The position numbers and the translations under genes were made by a program. DNA of 64,000 bases from NCBI RefSeq assembly GCF_009914755.1, contig NC_060925.1; one strand, written 5' to 3'. The notes under the pieces were generated by a model. That model ran no database searches. It was not told where the DNA came from and saw only the letters and a list, made by a program, of their open reading frames with translations. Positions 1,565-13,924 of this stretch are shown one piece after another; position 1 is the first letter of the stretch, and every line of letters begins with the position of its first letter. This DNA comes from the human T2T-CHM13v2.0 reference genome, Homo sapiens.

Positions 1565-3061
1565 GTACGTTGGGCCCATGGCATCTTTGGGGGTGGTCCC
1601 CAGCTGCTCTATGGGAGTGAGACTTCATTTCTGGAGCCATAGGACTATGAGGGAGGCCAACCCCTGGGGGGTCCAGTGCAGTCCTGAGGCTCACACAGTT
1701 CCTTGAAGAGCACCCCCCCCACCCCCCGCCCCACTCCCTGCACTCAGTGGAGAATTTTTTTAAATCTCTCCACTATCTGTGCCCCCTGCAAATCACCCCC
1801 TAATCCAGTCATTTTAGAAACCTGCCAGCCAGCCAGCACTCATCCATATTTATACCTGATGAGTGATAACAAGGGGTTTTTATTTGACCACCTATATTTC
1901 TTTTCTCGAAAGATCAGGCTGGGAAAACATTTTTGTTACTCTCTTTTTTTTTTAAACAACTATGCTCACCCCAACCTGTTGAGCCACTCTTCCACTTGCA
2001 AATTAAAATGACTGGTTTTCTAGGAGAAATCCGGCTTAAGCAGCCTTATGGAAGTGACCTAGTTCATTTAACCGAGATGAGGTTGATATAGGGTAAGATG
2101 GGGGAAGGAGGGAAAAGGATGTCAAGGAACAAAGGAAACCTGAACTGGTCCCAGAGAGATCTCATCTGATAGGCTGTTGGTTGATTCTCACACTTTGAAG
2201 CAGTTGTCCCGTGGGCCCACCCAAGCCTGCCCCCTGTCCGTTTGCCCTGTCTCTGTCCCCAGCTCCCCTCCCTTGGATACGATGCTGTCAGTGTTTTTAG
2301 TCCTTCCCTTAATATTATTTTTTAAAGGTTGATATCCTGAGTGAGTCTGCACCCTCCCAGCCTCTTCCCGGCTCGTTCTGCAGGGAAATCCTCCCTCTGT
2401 TGATAGCATCGCAAACCTGGTGGCAATCTGTGCGTGGACAGGACCCTCCCAAATTTAGCATTATGACTTCACCACAGGATCAAGAGAAGATGAATTGTGG
2501 GGGAGAAGGGGCTTTCTTTGTCATCAGTAGCCAGAGGGGCCAGGAGAGCAGTGGAGAGACCTGGGACCGGCTTGGATGCTCTGAGCGGGGCTAGAGGCGC
2601 TACGACAGTGTGTGGCGGTGTCCTGCCACGACGCCGCCGTCTCCAGAGCCACCACACAGTTGACTGTCCTTACCCGGCAGTGCTCAGGACCTCAGCCGAT
2701 AAACCACAACCTGGACTTGCCGCCTCCTTCTCCAGGAGGCCGCCCCAGCACGGCCTCCCCAGGAAGCAGCATGGGGTAGAAGGCAGATGCCTCGAATCCA
2801 GGTGTCCCCTAGCCACGCTTTCCTGAGGAGCTGAGGAGCCCGCAGAACTCAGCGGATTATTTATTTTTATTTAAACGACCCTTCAAAGGCCCTTAGGTTT
2901 CCTTGCCTCTGCTCACAGAACTAGTCCAGCCAGGTGTCGCTGCTGCCTCAGAGCTGTGTGGGGTCGCGTGTATGTCGGGGGGCCATCTTGCCGATTTAAC
3001 GCTGCTTTTTGTGTTGTTGTTGTTTTCCCTCCTCCCTGCCTGCCTGCCCCTTCTCCCCCAG

Positions 3062-3208
3062 CGAGGACGGTGTCGTGGAGAGGTCCAGCCCCAAGTCTGA
3101 GATTGAGGTCATTTCTGAGCCACCTGAAGAAAAGGTGACAGCCAGAGCGGGGGCCAGCTGTCCCAGTGGGGGTCATGTAGCCGATATTTATCTTGCAAAC
3201 ATCAACAA
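3062..3208 (+). CDS. SRGAP2: SRGAP2 coding exon (EDGVVERSSPKSEIEVISEPPEEK...YLANIN)
   Basis: Long pyrimidine tract ending ccccag|; AA|gtaagc donor; 147 nt, phase 2-2, in frame with both neighbours. Confidence 0.94.
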
Positions 3209-3975
3209 GTAAGCTCTGCTTTTCATTTTCTGCTCCCCTGAATGACTTGCAACACCCAGCCTCACCCTCTGGCCTAACCCCCATCTCCATTCCTGTGCTG
3301 CACGTAGGGCTCCCAGCTCCCCCAGCCTAACAGTTTGCATGTGGTCATTGCTGCTGCAAGGCGGACAGGGCTGAGGATGCTGCTACAAGCCTCGGGGCAG
3401 GTCCAGGTCTCCAGCTAGCTGCCCTCGTGCTGTGGAAGGGTGCTTTACTGTGTGTTCCCGCAGTGTCTGTCCACCCAGACCTTTGTGGCAGTCTTACAGC
3501 TAAAACTTTGACCAAAGCTTTGGTCACTTTATGCAACCTGGTTTTGTACTGTTTCTCAGAGGTGCCTTCTTTTTTCCAATCCATACTCAAATAATAGTCT
3601 TTGATGTCTGTCTTCCTTGACCCGTGTTCGTGCAAAGATTCAGAGTCTGTGTGTGGCTTCTACTAGGCTGATGTTACACCAGGTGGGTTTATTGAGATAT
3701 CATGTGTCTGTTCCTCCCCCTGTCCTGCATTCACTCCTGTGGAGGAAAGGAGGCCACGATGTCCCTAAGGAAAGCTTTGTCCTGAGCTCTTCATTCATTG
3801 GCTAACCCCTAGCTCCCTTTTCTTCTGCCCTTTCACACCAGGAGAAATAATTTTCCATTTTGTTCCTATTGCTTTGGCCTTTTGTATTATTCTACCCCCT
3901 TAGTCCCTTTGCAGATCCCCACTCCTGCTCAGCAGGCTCTTACCTCTGACCCCCAGCTTTCATTGTGGCTGTTAG

Positions 3976-4216: not shown

Positions 4217-6554
4217 TGTACAGTTTTTATTCCCCTCTGGCTTTTGAGGAATGAAATGATTTGCACTTTGAAAACCTGTTAACCGTAGCCTCTGGACACT
4301 GAGACTGGAAGGAGAATAAAGGATGCTTGTTGTTTTTAAACTATACCAGGTTTCCCAGATCTCTTGGCTTTTTTCCACCCAGACGGTAGCAGGGGGAGTG
4401 GTTGGGGCACGTGGCTCTTTTCCATCTCTTTCACCCTCAAGTTAGTAAAGTCGTTTATTCAGATCACTTACTCAGTGTAGTTATAATTTAATTCAGACCA
4501 GTTAAAAAAAAGTTGAGAAGTTTCTGTTTCCCTCCAGCACACTGCCCTGCTGGGAGGGCAAGCCAATATCAAGTAACTGTGGGCTAATCACATTTTTTTC
4601 CTTATTTACAATTCTGTGTTAAATTGTAACCCTACAATCAAAAGGTCGTGATCCTATAATTAACTCAGAAACCAAGGCGGGGTTGGTGGAGGAAGAGTTA
4701 GATAATTAGTTAAGTACATATTTTTAAGCCATCATATATTTGATGCCATTTGTGCATAGAAATTGTAGAGAGTAATAACTGAAATGGTAAACAGAAGAAG
4801 AAAAAAAAAGAGTATCTGTAGACAGTTAAGGTGGTTCCCTTGAACTCCTTGTTTGCTGGTGTCAGGAGTCTTGGGATGGGGTTCTTGGAGGACAAGCCTC
4901 ATCACCTGGTGGGTGGGTGAGCGGTGGCCCCGGGGCATGTCTGGCCCTTAGAAGTGAGTCGGCCTTTGAGTCTTACCTCCTGCCCCCCACGCCACTCCTC
5001 CTCCCAAATTCCTTGAGTTTCCCGAGTGCCCAGGTTCTCTTTCGCCCCTGGGCGCTCACGCCTGCTGTCTCCTCACCTGGTCACCTCCTCATCTCCCTTC
5101 AAGACTCAGTCCGAAGACTTAGCTCTTTGGGGAAGCCATTCTGACATCCCTGACTTCCCCAGGCTGAGTGAGGTGCCCTTATGCTGCATTCCAAAGACAC
5201 TTTGAATACCTTTTGGTACTCACGCTTCACTCAGATCCCCCACCAGATTGAGCTCCTTGAACCCAGGAACTATATCTTCCTTTTCTTTACATCCCCAGGG
5301 CCTAGCCTGGGACATGGCACACCACAGCCACCCCATAAATCTGTCTTCTCAGCAGTTTCAGCCCATGAGTCAGCTATCCTCAAGCAGAAAAAGGAAATCA
5401 GCAAAGAGCTATTAGGGTGTGGCACTTCCATTTAATTCTACACATTTATTAAGTATCTACTGTTGTGCCAAGCACTGCTGGTGTTTATTCAGAGATAAAA
5501 AAGACGAGGTCCCTGATCTCAGAGCTCACAGTCTGGCAAGGTAAAGACCCTATGGACAGGTAACTGACAGGTAGCATCAGATGCTCTGAAGGTACAGAGG
5601 AGGGAGGGGTCCATTCTTCCTGCAACTGGAGTTAGTGGTGCAGTGGTGCCAGTGCAGTTGGAGTTAGTGGTGCCAGGGAAATCCTTGCAGAGAGGGGGTT
5701 CATTTCAGCAGGGCCTTAGAAGACTCTGAGAACATCCTTTTTCCACTCGAGAGCGGCTGAGTCACAAGCCTAAAACTGCCGAGTGGACAGACTCACGGAG
5801 TGACTGATACATGCCAGGTCCTGGGCCAGGCCCTGCAGGCAGAAAGATGAGGAAGACCTCAGCAGTGAACAGGACTAGGACTGGCTTAGAGCACTGTCCC
5901 CACCTCACAGACCAGCTCCTTATCTTCAGAGTCTAACCCCTTCCCTCCTTCCACCTCAACTCCTGCCTCAGCCCCCATCTCTCTTAGATTCAAGATCAGA
6001 GCTGTTCAGCAGCCATCCAAATCAGAAGTTTCATTGCCTCTTAGATTAGACCTTTTCAGATCTGATTCCAAGACAAAATGAAATTATCCAGCAGCAGGCA
6101 ACACCCATGTAACTGGGATTCTGCCAAGCCATTTTGTCTGAGAGCCCTAAGTGGTCTGAAACAAATTCGCCCAGATCCAGGGTTCAGCCCAGTGCTGGGT
6201 GACTTGGGAGTCATGTAGAGGTATTTCCACACTAAGAAAACGCACAAACTGGGCCCCAACTCTGCAGTGTTGCTGCCTCTTGAAAACTATTCTGCTCCAT
6301 GCCTACAGAATAAGCAACAACAGCCTCTTGCCAGAGCCCAAAACAGTTACAGTCTTTTTGGAAAAAGAGACATGCTAAAATTTAGAAAAGTTAACTATCC
6401 TCTTACCAGCAATCTTGACCTCTTTGGTGATGGTGAGACTTCTTCTCCTAGCTGGGGCCTTAGGTTTCTGTTCATGGCAGGTCACAGAAGGGGCCTTTCC
6501 ATGAATCTCTTTCCCATTAGAAACCTTCGCTTAATCAGACATTTTTTCTGACAG

Positions 6555-6593
6555 CAACTTACATCTTGACAACACAAAGCCCGTGACCACCAA
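6555..6593 (+). CDS. SRGAP2: Candidate 39-nt in-frame SRGAP2 microexon (NNLHLDNTKPVTT)
   Basis: ttttttctgacag| acceptor, CAA|gtaagt donor, phase 2-2, no stop codon. Confidence 0.6.
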
Positions 6594-6806
6594 GTAAGTA
6601 TCCATTTCTCCTTCACCCAGCTTGGGGGTGGCAAGGGAATGAAGACATGGAGAATGCAAGAGAAGATGAAGCCGAGGAGAGAACGAGTTCTGTGTCCCTC
6701 TCCTTCCGAAGTCCCTGGGTGCCAACATCTGCCCCCTCCCACTTATCCTAGCTTCCTTGGAGCCAGGGCTCCCTGATCACACTGCCCTTTCTGTTTGTGA
6801 TTGAAG

Positions 6807-7131
6807 GCAAAGGAAGCGTCCAGAATCTGGGAGCATCCGGAAAACTTTTCGGAGTGACAGCCATGGGCTGAGCAGTTCCCTGACTGACTCCTCCTCCCCA
6901 GGGGTGGGGGCTAGCTGCCGCCCATCCTCCCAGCCCATCATGAGCCAGAGCCTCCCCAAAGAAGGGCCAGATAAGTGTTCCATCAGTGGGCACGGGAGCC
7001 TCAACTCCATCAGCCGCCACTCATCCCTGAAGAATCGGCTGGATAGTCCACAGATCCGGAAGACTGCCACAGCGGGAAGGTCAAAAAGCTTCAATAACCA
7101 TCGGCCCATGGACCCTGAGGTCATTGCTCAG
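6807..7131 (+). CDS. SRGAP2: SRGAP2 penultimate coding exon (QRKRPESGSIRK...TAGRSKSFNNHRPMDPEVIAQ)
   Basis: ttgaag| acceptor, CAG|gtaact donor; 325 nt, phase 2 to 0, open frame. Confidence 0.94.
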
Positions 7132-9219
7132 GTAACTGTGGGCTCCTGGACAGACAGCATGAGTCTACATTCATCACTACCACTTAGTGCCACCCACCTA
7201 ATTATGACAGGACTTGAAACAGAATGATTATTTTGTATGTGATATACTGAGTATATGTCCACTCTGGACATGTGGACCCAATAAGACAGCTTAATAAGTG
7301 GTCTGCCTGTCCCTCTCTCCCCAGGAAGAACCTAAAGACAGAATAAAAGAAGCCTAGCTTCTTGCTCATACACTGGCTATTAGGAAGGCTGTTGTAATTT
7401 TTAAAGCCGGTATTAAGAGTATTTTGAAAGCCCAAGTTTTGAGTCTAAAGACCTTGGTAGACTTTAGTGAAACTGCCCGACTGTTGAGGATCAGGTGTAA
7501 TCCTGGCCACATGTTTATATTGCTGTGCCCATCACCATCATCCCGATTCCTAAGGCTAGTCTCTGGTACCGAATGGGTAGATGATCAATTAAGAACCTGC
7601 ACCTGGTTTTAAAGACCTAAAAAATACTCTGGCTGCAGAGAGCTCTGGTAACCAAAAGGATTTGCAGCCCAAGCCTCCAGAGGCTATGGAGATGAGCTCC
7701 CTGGTTGCAGGGTCTTCCTTCTGTGTATGCACCGCACTGATGACTCTCTGTTTTCCATGAAATATTAGAGATCCAACCCCACCTCTAAAAATCCGACTAC
7801 CGGGGCCACTCCAAGCAGTTCACTCAGACGTCTCTCCCAACTATATAATTTTCATTAGACCAGGTAGGAACTAAGGGCTTATTGTTGCCTTCTTATCTCA
7901 ACTGAGTTGAGATTCTCCTTACCCCATCTTCCAGGGGGTGATAGAGGCTGGGCATGGTCTCTCTTGGCTTAATTGTGGTTCTCTGCTTACGGAGATGTAC
8001 CTGGCAAGCCCAGTATTGAGCTACAGGCCTGAGATGTCTTGCTTTGCTAGCCTTCTATTCTGTGCCTCTATTTAAGCTCTTGGCTGCAATCTGCCTTGCG
8101 CTACGGGAATCCTCCCAGCTCCCTCCTTGGCCAGGTGTTAATAGGAATGTCAGGAAAGGTAGACAGCTGGGACAGACTAGCTGTAGAGTGCGACTGAGGA
8201 GGGAGATGGAGTTCTTCCTGAGCATTTTAAAGGTTTGAGAATGTCATAGGGATGAGTGAAACTGAATCACTGTGAACAGAAAGCATGCATCGGTCTGTAC
8301 GACAAAGAAACCTTAACCAAAGGCCTTCGCTTGGAATGTGTAAAATCTTTCCATGTGAACCTAATCCCAAGAAGAAATCCTGTGGTAGTTTGGGGGTGCC
8401 AGACACAGGTTTATGGGGAGGGAGCGGGGAGCTGGGAAGTCTCACTGGAAGGCAGCTGGCTTGCATACAAAGGTTCTTTGGTTCTGCCTTGAGTCCCTGG
8501 GCTAGGACTGCTGTTGGCTAAAGATCTAGAGTGTTCCATTGATTTGCAGGCAATTGATTCACCTATGTGGGCTTTGGCTCCCCTTCCTGGTCATTCTTTG
8601 GTCCGCTTGGTGGTGATGGCTGGAAGGAAATGGTTTCAAATTGGACACTGCCCTGAGTTGGGGAGGAGGGGCGGGGGGAGGCGTATTGGGCTCCTGAAAC
8701 TTTCCTCAGCCCCTGAGGAGGAAGGACTAACCCTCTTCACCTTTGGCCTTGAAGTCCAAGAGAATAAAGATCATACATCATCTCTACCACTTTTTAAAAA
8801 AGTGTTTATTATGTACAATTTCAAACCTACCCAAAAGCAGACAGAACTGGATAACAAATCCCCATGTACTCATCACCAAACTCCTGGCCATTCTTACTTT
8901 GTCCGTGTTTCTCTTCCCCACTAGATTATATGTCACTTCGTCGATAAGTATTTCAATATCTATCTCTAAAACCTAGGGTCTCTAAAAAAATATCAATTAC
9001 TTTTTCTAAAGGAAAAAAAAAATCTCATGACAGTGAAAATCCCTCCGTCCCCCTTTCCCTACTTCCTGAGCATTCATATGTTCAAAGATTTAGGCCAAGT
9101 ACAATAATCTGGACATCTTACGGTCATTTTCTTCATGCCTTGGCCTGTGTTGTTGAAACCGGCTCCTTGGGGAATTCTCCCCTCATTTGCCTCACCTCCT
9201 CCTTTTTCCTGTTTTGCAG

Positions 9220-10106: not shown

Positions 10107-12587
10107 TATGTTTTTCTAGTCTCTGGCATGTGTAGCCTCTCCTGGTCATAGACCAGTCTCTTTGTAAGTTATTGTGGCAGTTCACACAGTAGCCACCAGG
10201 GGTCTCTGTTTCCATTACAAACTTTGTTCTGTCTGGGCCAGAGAACCTAGCCTTTGAAATCTCTCCATCATATGAAACATAACGGGATGGGACAATCCCG
10301 TAACCTGTTTGGGGTTGGGGGCTTTCTCTCTGTGTTCTTTCCATTGATGTGAATTGGTCATTGGTGTTTGCTCTTGCCTCTCCTCCATCCCCTAGAAGTA
10401 CACCCCCGTCTTATTAAGGAGCTTTTAAAGTTTTTCTGAATGTATAGACATTTCTCGGGTTCCTACCTTTGTCTCTGATGGACCATTTTCCATTTAAGAC
10501 ATTTTCCTGTATAAGACAGTTTTATAGCTGGTTCCTTTTAGGGTAAAGAGTCTTAAGAGAGTTTTATTGTGTCTATGGCAGGTTTGGGAAAGGTAAGAAA
10601 TGGGTCCTTTTTCCTCCTAATGTTTTTGGCACTTAAAACATAAAATTCATTATCCTATTAAAAAATTAAATTCAGCTTTGCTAATCCAGAAATTGTTCCC
10701 AAATGAAAACTTGTTTTAAGTCCACCCCTTAGTTTCCTTATTTTACAAGGTCTCTCTTCAGGGACCAACAGGGGCTTAGAGAGCCTTAGTTAGATTAAAG
10801 GGAGACCCTACCTCTTAAAACCAGTTTTCATTTATGCAAACAAGGACAATTAAGGGAACCCTGACCCCACAGGCTCTCAAGTCTTCCCAAGGCCAGAATC
10901 GAAAGAAAATTAAAATTTGAATGCTGAATATTCTGGCTCTACTCTGGCCTTTTTTCTGGTTCCCTTCCAAAATGCACAAATCATACCCTTGTCTGCTCCA
11001 ATTCAGTCTCCAAACCTGGTGCCTGTGCTCCTGGCCCCCCTAGCATCATGCTATCCCAGGAGTATCAGGACCAGACACATCCACAGCCAGGCTCATGGGT
11101 CTCAGACAGCAACTTGAGTTAAAGCTGAAACTCATCCTTCTTCTCTGTGTTTTCTGGTTTAAAAGCTGCACTTATATTTTAGCCTTATTATTTTCTGTAG
11201 TTCCGGAGAGATGGTGGGTTGCCATTCTGGTAGGAAAATCTGAGTTTTCTTATCTTTGACCTAGAAGAGATTCTTTTTGGACCAACCTGCGAAATTGGTA
11301 GTTAGGTCTATGGAAAGTGGTAGGATTTTTTTTTTTTAATCCTGTGCAAAGGAAAAGAGGTGCTTTGTGGGAAATCACTAATGAGAAGGCTAACCTGCAG
11401 CACCAGAGAAACCTTTCCAAGTGCTAGGCAGGAGAACTGAAGAACTCTTTCAGTGAAGTGAGTCAGCCTAGAAGAGGCAACCCACAGTCTTGATTTTTGT
11501 TGCTGTTTCCTGACCTGTTCTTGCCTGTCACCTGGGCCTACACAGGTCCCGAGCCAACGGGGCTTTCATACCCAAGGATCTGTTTCCTTGCTGAAAATGA
11601 AACCCTATCTTTCACTTTACATTCCTTTCAATCCAACTGATCAAAACTGGTACCCACACTTGCCCTTTCTCCCTCTCTCCAGCACACTCCCCTCTAAGAA
11701 AGTAAAAGCAAAGCCTTCTTAATGGCAACACTTTGGGCCTGTTCTGTTGCTCCTGCCTTATTTCTCTTTCAACCCTGTACATGACTCGTGTTCACCATCC
11801 CCTTGATCAGTGTCCATCCGCGCTAATTTGCATCATGAACTGAACAGTGTGTGAGTGGTCACCTACTAAACCCAGCTCTGGGGGCAGAGCTGTCTTCCCC
11901 ATCTCTGGTGCTCCTAACACCTGTGAGATGGTCCTGTCGAGAGGACTAGGAACCGATAGGAGGAGAGTCCTTCTCGGCAGAGCTCACTGCAAACAACTGG
12001 AATTGAGGTTGCACACTGTGATTTTTACACCGAAAAGCCAAAAGGAGCTGGCCATCCAGGGCCTAGGGAGACCAGCCTTCCTCAGCTATGCTTGCCGAAA
12101 CCAGCATGATGCTTCAAAGAGCCCTGCTCCACCCCTCATGGCATGGATCCTTTTCCTGGTGTGGACTCTGAAGGGTCAGTCTTCGGGGAAGAGAGGTGGG
12201 GTGGGGCTACTAGCATCCCAATTTAGAAAATAGAGGAGTTTGTAGCCAGCAGCCTGTAAACTGGAAACACTGGTCTCAGCCAACCTCCTCAGGGCGCCCT
12301 GGCTTCTCCCCAAGGAGATGAGGAGCGGTGATGCCAGCACCGGGATGCGCAGAGCACTGGAAGGGCTGGTGCAGATCTACTTCCCATGCAGAAGAGAAGT
12401 CACATCTTCCAGGGAATCGCAATGTTGTGGCGTCTGACTTGTATGTCACATTTGTGTAAAATGGTATATTCTTTAAAATAGTGTTGATAACTGGAATATT
12501 GTATGTATGCTTGGAGATGCTTTGTGTGAACCTAAGACTGTCACTCAACAGATGTTGGATTGGGGAAAATCCAAAGCACAACTTCAA

Positions 12588-12593: not shown

Positions 12594-13924
12594 ATACATT
12601 TTTAGGTTTCGATGCTGCAGTTCATATCCCTTCTGTCCTCTCTGAAATCTCTGATTCAGGACTCCAGCTGCCCAGGAGGGATTTTGATTCGTCTGTGCTA
12701 ACAGAGCCCTGCCTGGCAACAGAGAGAGCAACGAGATGACCTTACAGCCAGCCACCTTCTCCCTCCCCACCAAGGCACAGCACACTTGCATTTAGAATGG
12801 GAGGTTTTTCCCCCAGCATTTCCATTTAGCCTGTGTGTGGATTCTCATAGGTTTTGTAGAGAGTCTTCCCGCTCACCATTGGACTGCCTGTTGCCATGAG
12901 AACCGTTTCCTTCACAGAATCCACCTTCCTTGTTTTCAATAAGGACTGTTCTCATTTCTATCTCTAGTCAGATTTCCTCACTTCAGGGAGTGGGGCCTAA
13001 GAAGTTGCTTAGAAACTTGGCAAGCTACAACCAAGGGTGACTAGAGATTCTCTTTCTTCCACAACCAAAGCCCTGAGTCATTCTGCCCTTGACAGCCCTC
13101 TGCCTCTGGGAGAAAAGCTGACCAATATGCTTGTGCTGTTGGTGGGAGTGGGGGATACAGGTGATGTTTTCTCTCCTACAGATTGTGAGTCTAGCAGAGC
13201 TTAAGTTCAAGGGTGAAGTTATTTCAAGGTAACAACTTCAAACAAATCCTAGAGCCCCTAGGGCCAACACTTATTTTTAACAGGCTTGTTCTAATAAAAG
13301 ATGCCCCTGGGGATGGATCACATCTCTCCAAGTGGGTACCCTGTGTTCAGTGGTAATGCAAGGAATCCTACCCCCAGCTCTAGACAGAACACTTTACAAC
13401 CCCTTCTTAGGTTTATCATCCCTATCCGTTATTCATATATCTTCTATTCAGCTCTGCTATGCCCTTCCAGCCTACTGTCTCTTCCCTTCCCCTGTTTTCA
13501 TGGAACAGCTACATCTTGAGCTTCTCTTGCTGGGCCCTTGGCCTTGGGTAAGTCAAGGCCAAGGCTGCTGTGCCACTCTGTGGTAGGAATGAGTTCTCCC
13601 TGACTGCAGGGAGAATGGGGATGGCCAGGAGCACCCCATAATAGCTGCGACATGGAGCCAGTTTGTAGGCTGTGAGCAGGGGACCAAAGAGCCCCTTTTC
13701 AGAGGGTCCTGAGGCAAAGGCAGGCTATGCTTTTTAGGTCCTCTTTATCCATATATGGTTCTTTTTATCTCATATGTCCTGATGGGGGCTGGATGGAAAC
13801 TAGTGGCAATGAACACTGTCAAAACACAAGTCCATTCCTTCCAGATAGAAACCAAAAATGGAGACCAGATGTATGTGAATTTAGGAAACAGTCTTTTAAG
13901 ACTATCTAACCTAAATGTTTATAT

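What the first reader, a model, noticed from the sequence alone, without database searches (positions are those of the whole stretch)
6529..6599. 39-nt in-frame microexon in SRGAP2, invisible to the ORF track
Seen: branch-like cttaAt (~6534), acceptor ttttttctgacag| (6554), exon CAACTTACATCTTGACAACACAAAGCCCGTGACCACCAA (6555-6593) and a consensus donor CAA|gtaagt, 213 nt upstream of the next exon. It is phase 2-2 and stop-free, changing ...LANIN-K-QRKR to ...LANIN-NNLHLDNTKPVTT-K-QRKR (+13 aa). Strong sites, length 3n and an open frame together are unlikely by chance. Established: short tissue-regulated exons often remodel interaction surfaces of cytoskeletal GTPase regulators. It is absent from the canonical protein as I recall it.
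Basis: partly seen in the sequence, partly recalled or inferred. Interest (0 to 1): 0.8.

Follow-up and report, generated by a model that had tools for sequence, protein, structure and literature searches.

The report
Known 39-base alternative exon of SRGAP2
This is a real, in-frame 39-base alternative exon of human SRGAP2 that adds 13 amino acids to the protein's flexible tail; it is already in the gene annotation of human and many other placental mammals, so it is genuine but not new.

Summary
Window 6555-6593 is a 39-nt segment with acceptor ttttttctgacAG| and donor |GTAAGT. It lies 213 nt upstream of SRGAP2 exon 22 and is open only in the frame the flanking exons require. Inclusion turns ...LANIN-KQRKR... 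into ...LANIN-NNLHLDNTKPVTT-KQRKR....

It is not new. The hub's RefSeq table already lists 6555-6593 as an exon of other SRGAP2 transcripts. The window's conceptual translation with the exon is identical to the C-terminus of database proteins of 1084, 1083 and 986 aa.

A 13-aa insert (14 aa in bats) sits at this junction in 120 of 120 proteins listed by a targeted search. These come from about 50 genera in nine placental orders. No rodent, afrotherian, marsupial or non-mammal appears among them.

The 15 residues on each side are almost invariant in 35 aligned sequences, while the insert varies but keeps N-x-L-x-L-x-N-x-x-P. It lies about 50 residues after the SH3 domain, outside the structured core.

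Sequence signals alone are only moderately improbable (about 0.06-0.14 expected per intron). It shows none of the neural microexon hallmarks I checked. Tissue pattern and function are untested, and eight literature searches found no description of it.

The parts
3062..3208 (+). SRGAP2 exon 21 (constitutive). It ends ...AAC ATC AAC AA|gtaagc and supplies the first two bases of the split codon.
   Evidence: hub annotation table (NM_015326.5).
6530..6554 (+). 3' splice-site region of the alternative exon. It holds a branch-like TTAAT (A at 6534), the pyrimidine run TTTTTTCT (6542-6549) and the CAG acceptor ending at 6554.
   Evidence: 9 of 10 pyrimidines in the best 10-nt window and no AG in -14..-3.
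6555..6593 (+). 39-nt in-frame cassette exon (phase 2-2) encoding (N)NLHLDNTKPVTT. It inserts 13 aa after N835 of the 1071-aa protein. The exon is A/C-rich (29 of 39 bases).
   Evidence: listed as an exon of other transcripts in the hub's RefSeq table.
6594..6806 (+). Short 213-nt downstream intron. It has a consensus donor GTAAGT, G-runs/GGUGG at +31 to +44, and ends in an unusual AAG acceptor before exon 22.
6807..7131 (+). SRGAP2 exon 22 (constitutive). It begins G CAA AGG AAG CGT, giving (K)QRKRPESGSIRKTF, which is invariant in 35 aligned placental sequences.

Best explanation
Window 6555-6593 is a genuine, already annotated alternative cassette exon in intron 21 of human SRGAP2.

When the spliceosome uses its CAG acceptor and GTAAGT donor, 39 nt are added in frame. 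The protein gains 13 residues (NNLHLDNTKPVTT) after N835. The site is about 50 residues C-terminal to the SH3 domain and directly in front of the invariant basic stretch KQRKRPES. No frameshift or stop results, so the product is a full-length isoform: 1084/1083 aa, or 986 aa when combined with the alternative terminal exon at 7769-7862.

Shown here: the sequence anatomy, the frame, identity with database isoforms, and presence of a homologous insert at the same junction in nine placental orders.

Inferred: the exon is included only in some tissues or at low level, because several primate annotation sets lack it and the selected transcript skips it. Also inferred: it acts by changing the local properties of the tail next to the basic cluster (spacing, or a short linear motif with conserved N-x-L-x-L-x-N-x-x-P) rather than by altering a folded domain.
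For: Anatomy and frame.

Annotation: the hub table lists 6555-6593 among exons of other RefSeq transcripts.

Identity with database isoforms: the 357-aa translation of window exons 20, 21, the microexon, 22 and 23 equals the C-terminus of P0057 (1084 aa) and P0054 (1083 aa). With terminal exon 7769-7862 it equals the C-terminus of P0011 (986 aa).

Conservation: one search used exon 22 as query. Of its 120 listed proteins, 40 carry an insert, 76 have none, and 4 did not match my pattern. One search used the junction region of P0057 as query, and 120 of 120 listed proteins carry an insert. Over all 203 stored proteins, 93 have 13 aa and 30 have 14 aa; all 14-aa forms are from bats. The insert-bearing proteins are named for Primates, Lagomorpha, Artiodactyla including whales, Carnivora, Perissodactyla, Pholidota, Eulipotyphla, Chiroptera and Pilosa.

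Pattern (35 sequences): N 35/35; L 32 plus F 3; L 34 plus V 1; N 32; P 33.

Position: the SH3 domain is residues 734-784 and the insert 836-848 of P0057. The published structured construct ends at residue 799 (PMC5435084, passages read). The tail is 68% S/T/P/G/N/Q/D/E/K/R.

Uniqueness: the segment occurs once in the genome.
Against: No RNA-seq or cDNA evidence could be inspected here. The mammalian records are mostly automatic models (isoform X numbers), which could propagate a weak splice event.

The insert evolves much faster than its flanks, which are 35/35 identical at 29 of 30 flanking positions.

Several annotation sets with X1 = 1071 aa lack the insert. These include primates (Pongo pygmaeus, Nomascus, Macaca nemestrina, Piliocolobus) and all listed rodents.

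The species seen are by construction those in which an in-frame isoform was annotated, so frame conservation is partly ascertained.

Eight literature searches found no paper describing the exon. Supplementary tables of splicing studies are not searched by that tool and were not seen.
Confidence: 0.9

Rival explanations
1. Splicing noise. A fortuitous pseudo-exon with good splice sites is included at low level and has been picked up by automatic annotation pipelines. The 13-aa isoform has no selected function.
For: Under strict criteria similar 3n open candidates occur at about 0.06-0.14 per 3.6 kb, so one per intron by chance is not absurd. The insert is far more variable than its invariant flanks. 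It is missing from the selected transcript and from several primate and all listed rodent model sets. No literature on it was found.
Against: An insert of the same length at the same junction is annotated in about 50 genera of nine placental orders. Five positions are kept in at least 32 of 35 sequences. Human against the laurasiatherian majority form differs at 4 of 13 residues, all conservative (N/T, D/E, T/S, V/T). A neutral 39-nt intron segment would be expected to pick up stops or frameshifts over that span; that expectation is inference, not computed.
Confidence: 0.1
2. A neural, SRRM4/RBFOX-type microexon, switched on in neurons like the classical microexon programme.
For: SRGAP2 is a neuronal cytoskeletal regulator (reviews seen). 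The exon is short, in frame, and lies in a non-domain region. By my recollection, these are typical traits of neural microexons.
Against: At 39 nt it is longer than the 3-27 nt class (definition recalled). There is no UGC within 180 nt upstream of the acceptor, and no GCAUG in 200 nt upstream, the exon, or the 213-nt downstream intron. The motif meanings are recalled, not taken from a tool. The search for SRGAP2 with 'microexon' gave 3 papers, all general reviews going by their titles and abstract openings in the listing; their texts were not opened. Sequence conservation of the insert is low, unlike the high conservation I recall for neural microexons.
Confidence: 0.1

Closest known systems
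Annotated SRGAP2 isoforms X1/X2 (1084/1083 aa) and the 986-aa form, in human and other placental mammals
   Same: Same exon, same junction, same 13-aa insert. The window's translation is letter-for-letter the C-terminus of P0057, P0054 and P0011.
   Different: Nothing differs; this is the same object. The selected transcript NM_015326.5 (1071 aa) skips it.
Neural microexon programme (SRRM4-dependent, 3-27 nt exons; recalled from Irimia et al. 2014, not read here)
   Same: A short, in-frame cassette exon in a signalling/cytoskeletal gene that alters a region outside the folded domains.
   Different: It is 39 nt long. The upstream UGC and GCAUG motifs are absent. The insert sequence is poorly conserved compared with its flanks. 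Tissue pattern is unknown.
Other alternative events of the same gene tail: the alternative terminal exon 7769-7862/7863, and the one-residue (Q) difference between the 1071- and 1070-aa forms
   Same: They combine freely with the 13-aa insert in the models: 1084/1083 and 986 aa against 1071/1070 and 973/972 aa.
   Different: The terminal exon replaces the last about 130 residues with a 29-residue end (RSNPTS...YNFH). The Q difference lies in the F-BAR region outside the window.

Membership tests
Alternative cassette exon of a protein-coding gene | Bounded by AG acceptor and GT donor with a usable pyrimidine tract and branch point | tested here: met
   CAG| at 6552-6554, |GTAAGT at 6594-6599, 9 of 10 pyrimidines, TTAAT 20 nt upstream.
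Alternative cassette exon of a protein-coding gene | Length and phase keep the reading frame, with no stop | tested here: met
   39 nt, phase 2-2, one open frame through the joined exons. The other two frames of the exon have a stop.
Alternative cassette exon of a protein-coding gene | Transcripts both with and without the exon exist | tested here: inconclusive
   The hub's RefSeq table lists it for other transcripts, and protein records with and without it exist. Reads or cDNAs themselves could not be inspected with these tools.
Alternative cassette exon of a protein-coding gene | Orthologous exon present in other species | tested here: met
   120 of 120 listed proteins from nine placental orders carry a 13- or 14-aa insert at the same junction. 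Not seen in rodents or outside placentals.
Neural (SRRM4-type) microexon | Length 3-27 nt (definition recalled) | tested here: not met
   39 nt.
Neural (SRRM4-type) microexon | UGC-containing enhancer close upstream of the acceptor, and/or GCAUG nearby (recalled) | tested here: not met
   the nearest upstream UGC is at -182; no GCAUG in 200 nt upstream, the exon, or the 213-nt downstream intron.
Neural (SRRM4-type) microexon | Neuron-specific inclusion | not testable with these tools

The most novel reading that the evidence does not exclude
The exon is a placental innovation, possibly lost or silent in rodents, which would explain why mouse work never met it. Its inclusion would build a short linear motif across the exon 21/microexon junction. 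The sequence L-A-N-I-N-N-N-L-H-L fits a hydrophobic Phi-xx-Phi-xxx-Phi-x-Phi pattern of the kind recognised by the nuclear export receptor (class definition recalled). It sits directly before the invariant basic cluster KQRKR. The isoform could therefore differ in nucleo-cytoplasmic distribution, or in access to the neighbouring basophilic-kinase-like site RKRPES.

One search shows that inclusion creates the single extra match to that pattern; it is one of only two pattern hits in the 295-residue tail. One search shows the four hydrophobic positions are hydrophobic in 35 of 35 sequences. Two of those 35 rows carry an extra residue that shifts the spacing. The 14-aa bat forms (30 of 123 insert-bearing proteins) likewise break the spacing, which counts against the idea.
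Probability: 0.06. Interest if true: 0.5.

Novelty: already known. Interest (0 to 1): 0.2.

Why it matters
SRGAP2 is heavily studied because of its human-specific truncated copies. Nearly all functional work uses the 1071-aa form or mouse Srgap2. A conserved 13-aa tail insert that is annotated in most placental orders, but not seen in rodent models here, is a reminder that an isoform may have been overlooked experimentally. As a sequence finding it adds nothing to existing annotation. Its value would come only from expression and functional data.

Tried and rejected
1. Structure prediction of the 294-aa chimpanzee partial protein P0001 with the 35-row alignment A1. Mean pLDDT was 37 and even the SH3 domain was not folded, so the low confidence at the insert says nothing about disorder. 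I did not use it.

2. Representative-library search with A1. The 50% clusters merge SRGAP paralogues, and the top representative P0204 is only 61.5% identical. In one search the junction segment (P0057 residues 796-890) matched 10 of the 150 representatives. Four of them align across the junction (P0225, P0264, P0262, P0286) and all four lack an insert. P0274 ends at the junction. P0320, P0339 and P0330 align only from the KQRKR stretch onward. The P0221 and P0284 matches are weak (E 0.001 and 0.35). These are arbitrary isoforms or fragments without names, so this is weak evidence about non-placentals.

3. 'Shorter' protein search for partial cDNA-derived proteins with the insert. Only P0001 (insert) and P0105 (no insert) were returned.

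4. Transposon origin. A self-BLAST of 6350-6810 against the window gave only two trivial short hits. No repeat library is available, so this stays open.

5. Paralogue check. SRGAP1's homologous exon was found at C12:64106745. The 1.45 kb upstream held one 3n candidate, and it contains a stop. SRGAP3 was not recovered at E <= 10.

6. Rfam scan of 5500-7600 gave 0 matches. RNA folding of 6500-6650 gave z = -0.54. There is no structured RNA.

7. My recollection that a C-terminal extension of the SH3 domain contributes to Robo1 binding was not borne out. The passages read in PMC5435084 attribute the 'two components' to SH3 plus the RhoGAP/F-BARx surface.

Full report
**What is there.** I read window 6400-7200 and 3000-3300.
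- The branch-like cttaat is at 6530-6535 (TTAAT with its A at 6534).
- A T-rich tract ends in ctgacAG at 6554.
- The 39-nt segment is 6555-6593.
- The consensus donor GTAAGT is at 6594-6599.
- A 213-nt intron (6594-6806) runs up to SRGAP2 exon 22.

Exon 21 ends with two bases of a codon (…AAC AA|) and exon 22 starts with the third (|G CAA AGG). I joined the annotated exons by coordinate with and without 6555-6593. Both versions give a single open frame, and they differ only by NNLHLDNTKPVTT inserted between …ADIYLANIN and KQRKRPES…. The other two frames of the 39-mer each carry a stop.

**Is it more than chance?** I scanned both strands of the window (128 kb) for segments at least as good by simple rules. 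The rules were a GTAAGT donor, a YAG acceptor, at least 8 of 10 pyrimidines, no AG in -14..-3, length 9-60 nt and 3n, and open in phase 2.
- Five segments pass.
- One is this exon and two are the 3' ends of true IKBKE exons.
- Two are unexplained (10152-10163 and 13509-13547).
- That gives about 0.06-0.14 expected per 3.6-kb intron.
- With looser rules (GTRAG donor, at least 8 of 10 pyrimidines) the expectation rises to 0.6.

**Independent support.** The hub's RefSeq table lists 6555-6593 as an exon of other SRGAP2 transcripts.

A protein search with exon 22 as query listed 120 proteins. My pattern match at the junction gave:

| Result at the junction | Proteins |
|---|---|
| Carry an insert | 40 |
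| No insert (includes the human 1071- and 1070-aa records P0046, P0036) | 76 |
| Did not match my pattern | 4 |

A second search used residues 822-862 of the 1084-aa protein P0057. All 120 of its 120 listed proteins carry an insert.

The window's own 357-aa translation with the exon is letter-for-letter the C-terminus of P0057 and P0054. With the alternative terminal exon 7769-7862 it is the C-terminus of the 986-aa P0011. These three entries are named for gorilla. However, they are also recorded on a contig of 248,956,422 bases, which I recall as the length of GRCh38 chromosome 1. The human models are therefore probably collapsed into them; this is inference.

The DNA segment occurs once in the genome.

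**Breadth.** The insert-bearing records come from about 50 genera:
- apes, Old and New World monkeys, tarsier and lemur;
- rabbit and hare;
- ruminants, pigs, camelids and whales;
- mustelids, a canid, a bear and a seal;
- horse, pangolin, hedgehog, many bats, and one xenarthran (Tamandua).

Of the 123 insert-bearing proteins stored, 93 have 13 residues. The other 30, all from bats, have 14. In several bat species both lengths are annotated, which looks like a tandem acceptor. In rabbit and hare the split codon after the insert reads E instead of K.

No rodent, afrotherian, marsupial or non-mammal is among the insert-bearing records. The rodents listed have only insert-free forms (Marmota, Ictidomys, Castor, Dipodomys, Phodopus, Ctenodactylus, Sciurus). 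In the four where isoform X1 is listed, X1 is 1071 aa.

This is not proof of absence, for two reasons:
- Some primate sets also have X1 = 1071 (Pongo pygmaeus, Nomascus, Macaca nemestrina, Piliocolobus).
- Only the best 120 of 209 hits were shown.

That uneven annotation within primates itself suggests restricted or low-level inclusion.

**Constraint.** I aligned 35 insert-bearing proteins.
- The 15 residues before the insert are 35/35 identical.
- The 15 residues after it are 35/35 identical except for the lysine of the split codon (32/35).
- The insert varies at most positions but keeps a pattern.

| Kept position | Count in 35 sequences |
|---|---|
| N | 35 |
| L | 32 (plus F 3) |
| L | 34 (plus V 1) |
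| N | 32 |
| P | 33 |

The insert therefore evolves much faster than the constitutive sequence around it, while retaining N-x-L-x-L-x-N-x-x-P. The sample contains only species in which an in-frame model exists, so frame conservation is partly ascertained.

**Where it sits in the protein.**
- Pfam places the SH3 domain at 734-784 of P0057, and the insert is at 836-848.
- Passages of PMC5435084 show that the structurally characterised F-BARx-RhoGAP-SH3 construct ends at residue 799. They also show that Robo1 binding was assigned to SH3 plus the RhoGAP/F-BARx surface.
- The insert therefore lies in the C-terminal tail. That tail is 68% polar, charged, glycine or proline residues.
- An AlphaFold2 run failed overall (mean pLDDT 37, SH3 not folded) and is not used.

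**How it probably works.**
- *Shown:* an in-frame cassette exon with a strong donor and a very short downstream intron. It yields a full-length isoform with 13 extra residues directly before the invariant basic stretch KQRKRPES.
- *Inferred:* inclusion is regulated or minor. The effect is local to the tail, either through spacing or through a short linear motif.
- *Speculative lead:* inclusion creates a L-xx-I-xxx-L-x-L hydrophobic pattern across the junction. As I recall the classes, this resembles a nuclear-export-type motif. The 14-aa bat forms break the spacing, such patterns are common, and no paper on an SRGAP2 localisation signal turned up.

**Regulation.** I found no GCAUG. There is no UGC within 180 nt upstream of the acceptor. 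G-runs and GGUGG lie at +31 to +44 in the downstream intron. The motif meanings are recalled. Nothing points to the classical neural microexon programme, and at 39 nt the exon is outside its usual size range. There is no Rfam match and no unusual RNA fold (z = -0.54).

**Paralogues.** SRGAP1's homologous exon was found on contig 12. The 1.45 kb upstream of it holds no comparable exon. SRGAP3 was not recovered. The representative-library search gave four unnamed representatives that align across the junction, and all four lack an insert. This is weak evidence.

**Literature.** Eight full-text searches found no description of this exon. I read passages in PMC6169893, PMC4734150, PMC4664170, PMC7785817 and PMC5435084. 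Supplementary tables of splicing studies are not searched and were not seen, so the exon may be listed there.

**Verdict.** The exon is already annotated in human and many placentals, so it is known. What is open is its tissue pattern, its status in rodents, and what the 13 residues do.

Noticed in passing
window 7769-7863: An alternative terminal coding exon (94/95 nt, acceptor tattag|, donor |gtagga) encodes RSNPTSKNPTTGATPSSSLRRLSQLYNFH followed by a stop. It gives the 973/972-aa isoforms and, together with the 39-nt exon, the 986-aa one.
   Followed up: partly
window 6790-6807: The constitutive exon 22 has an AAG acceptor (gtgattgaag|G), with A at -3. This looks weaker than the CAG acceptor of the alternative exon 213 nt upstream.
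   Followed up: no
proteins P0046 and P0036 (outside the window): The 1071- and 1070-aa forms differ by a single Q near residue 287 in the F-BAR region (…LIDQCCDL… against …LIDCCDL…). This is probably a tandem acceptor.
   Followed up: no
bat proteins, e.g. P0167-P0171 against P0181-P0197: Bats carry both 13-aa (NTFHLENSKPTAT) and 14-aa (NSTFHLENSKPTAT) versions of the insert within one species. This suggests two acceptors 3 nt apart. The human acceptor has no second AG in register.
   Followed up: partly
window 6536-6552: A small inverted repeat, tcaga-cattttt-tctga, could pair across the pyrimidine tract of the alternative exon. Folding of 6500-6650 is not better than shuffles (z = -0.54).
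   Followed up: partly
window 10152-10163 and 13509-13547: These are two other segments that pass the strict pseudo-exon filter (GTAAGT donor, good acceptor, 3n, open). One lies in the SRGAP2 3' UTR and one downstream of the gene. They were used only as chance controls.
   Followed up: no
L003 (G000:C12:64105245-64108505): The SRGAP1 exon homologous to SRGAP2 exon 22 begins (x)QRKRGEPPPP, so the basic QRKR start is shared between the paralogues. No similar short exon lies within 1.45 kb upstream.
   Followed up: partly
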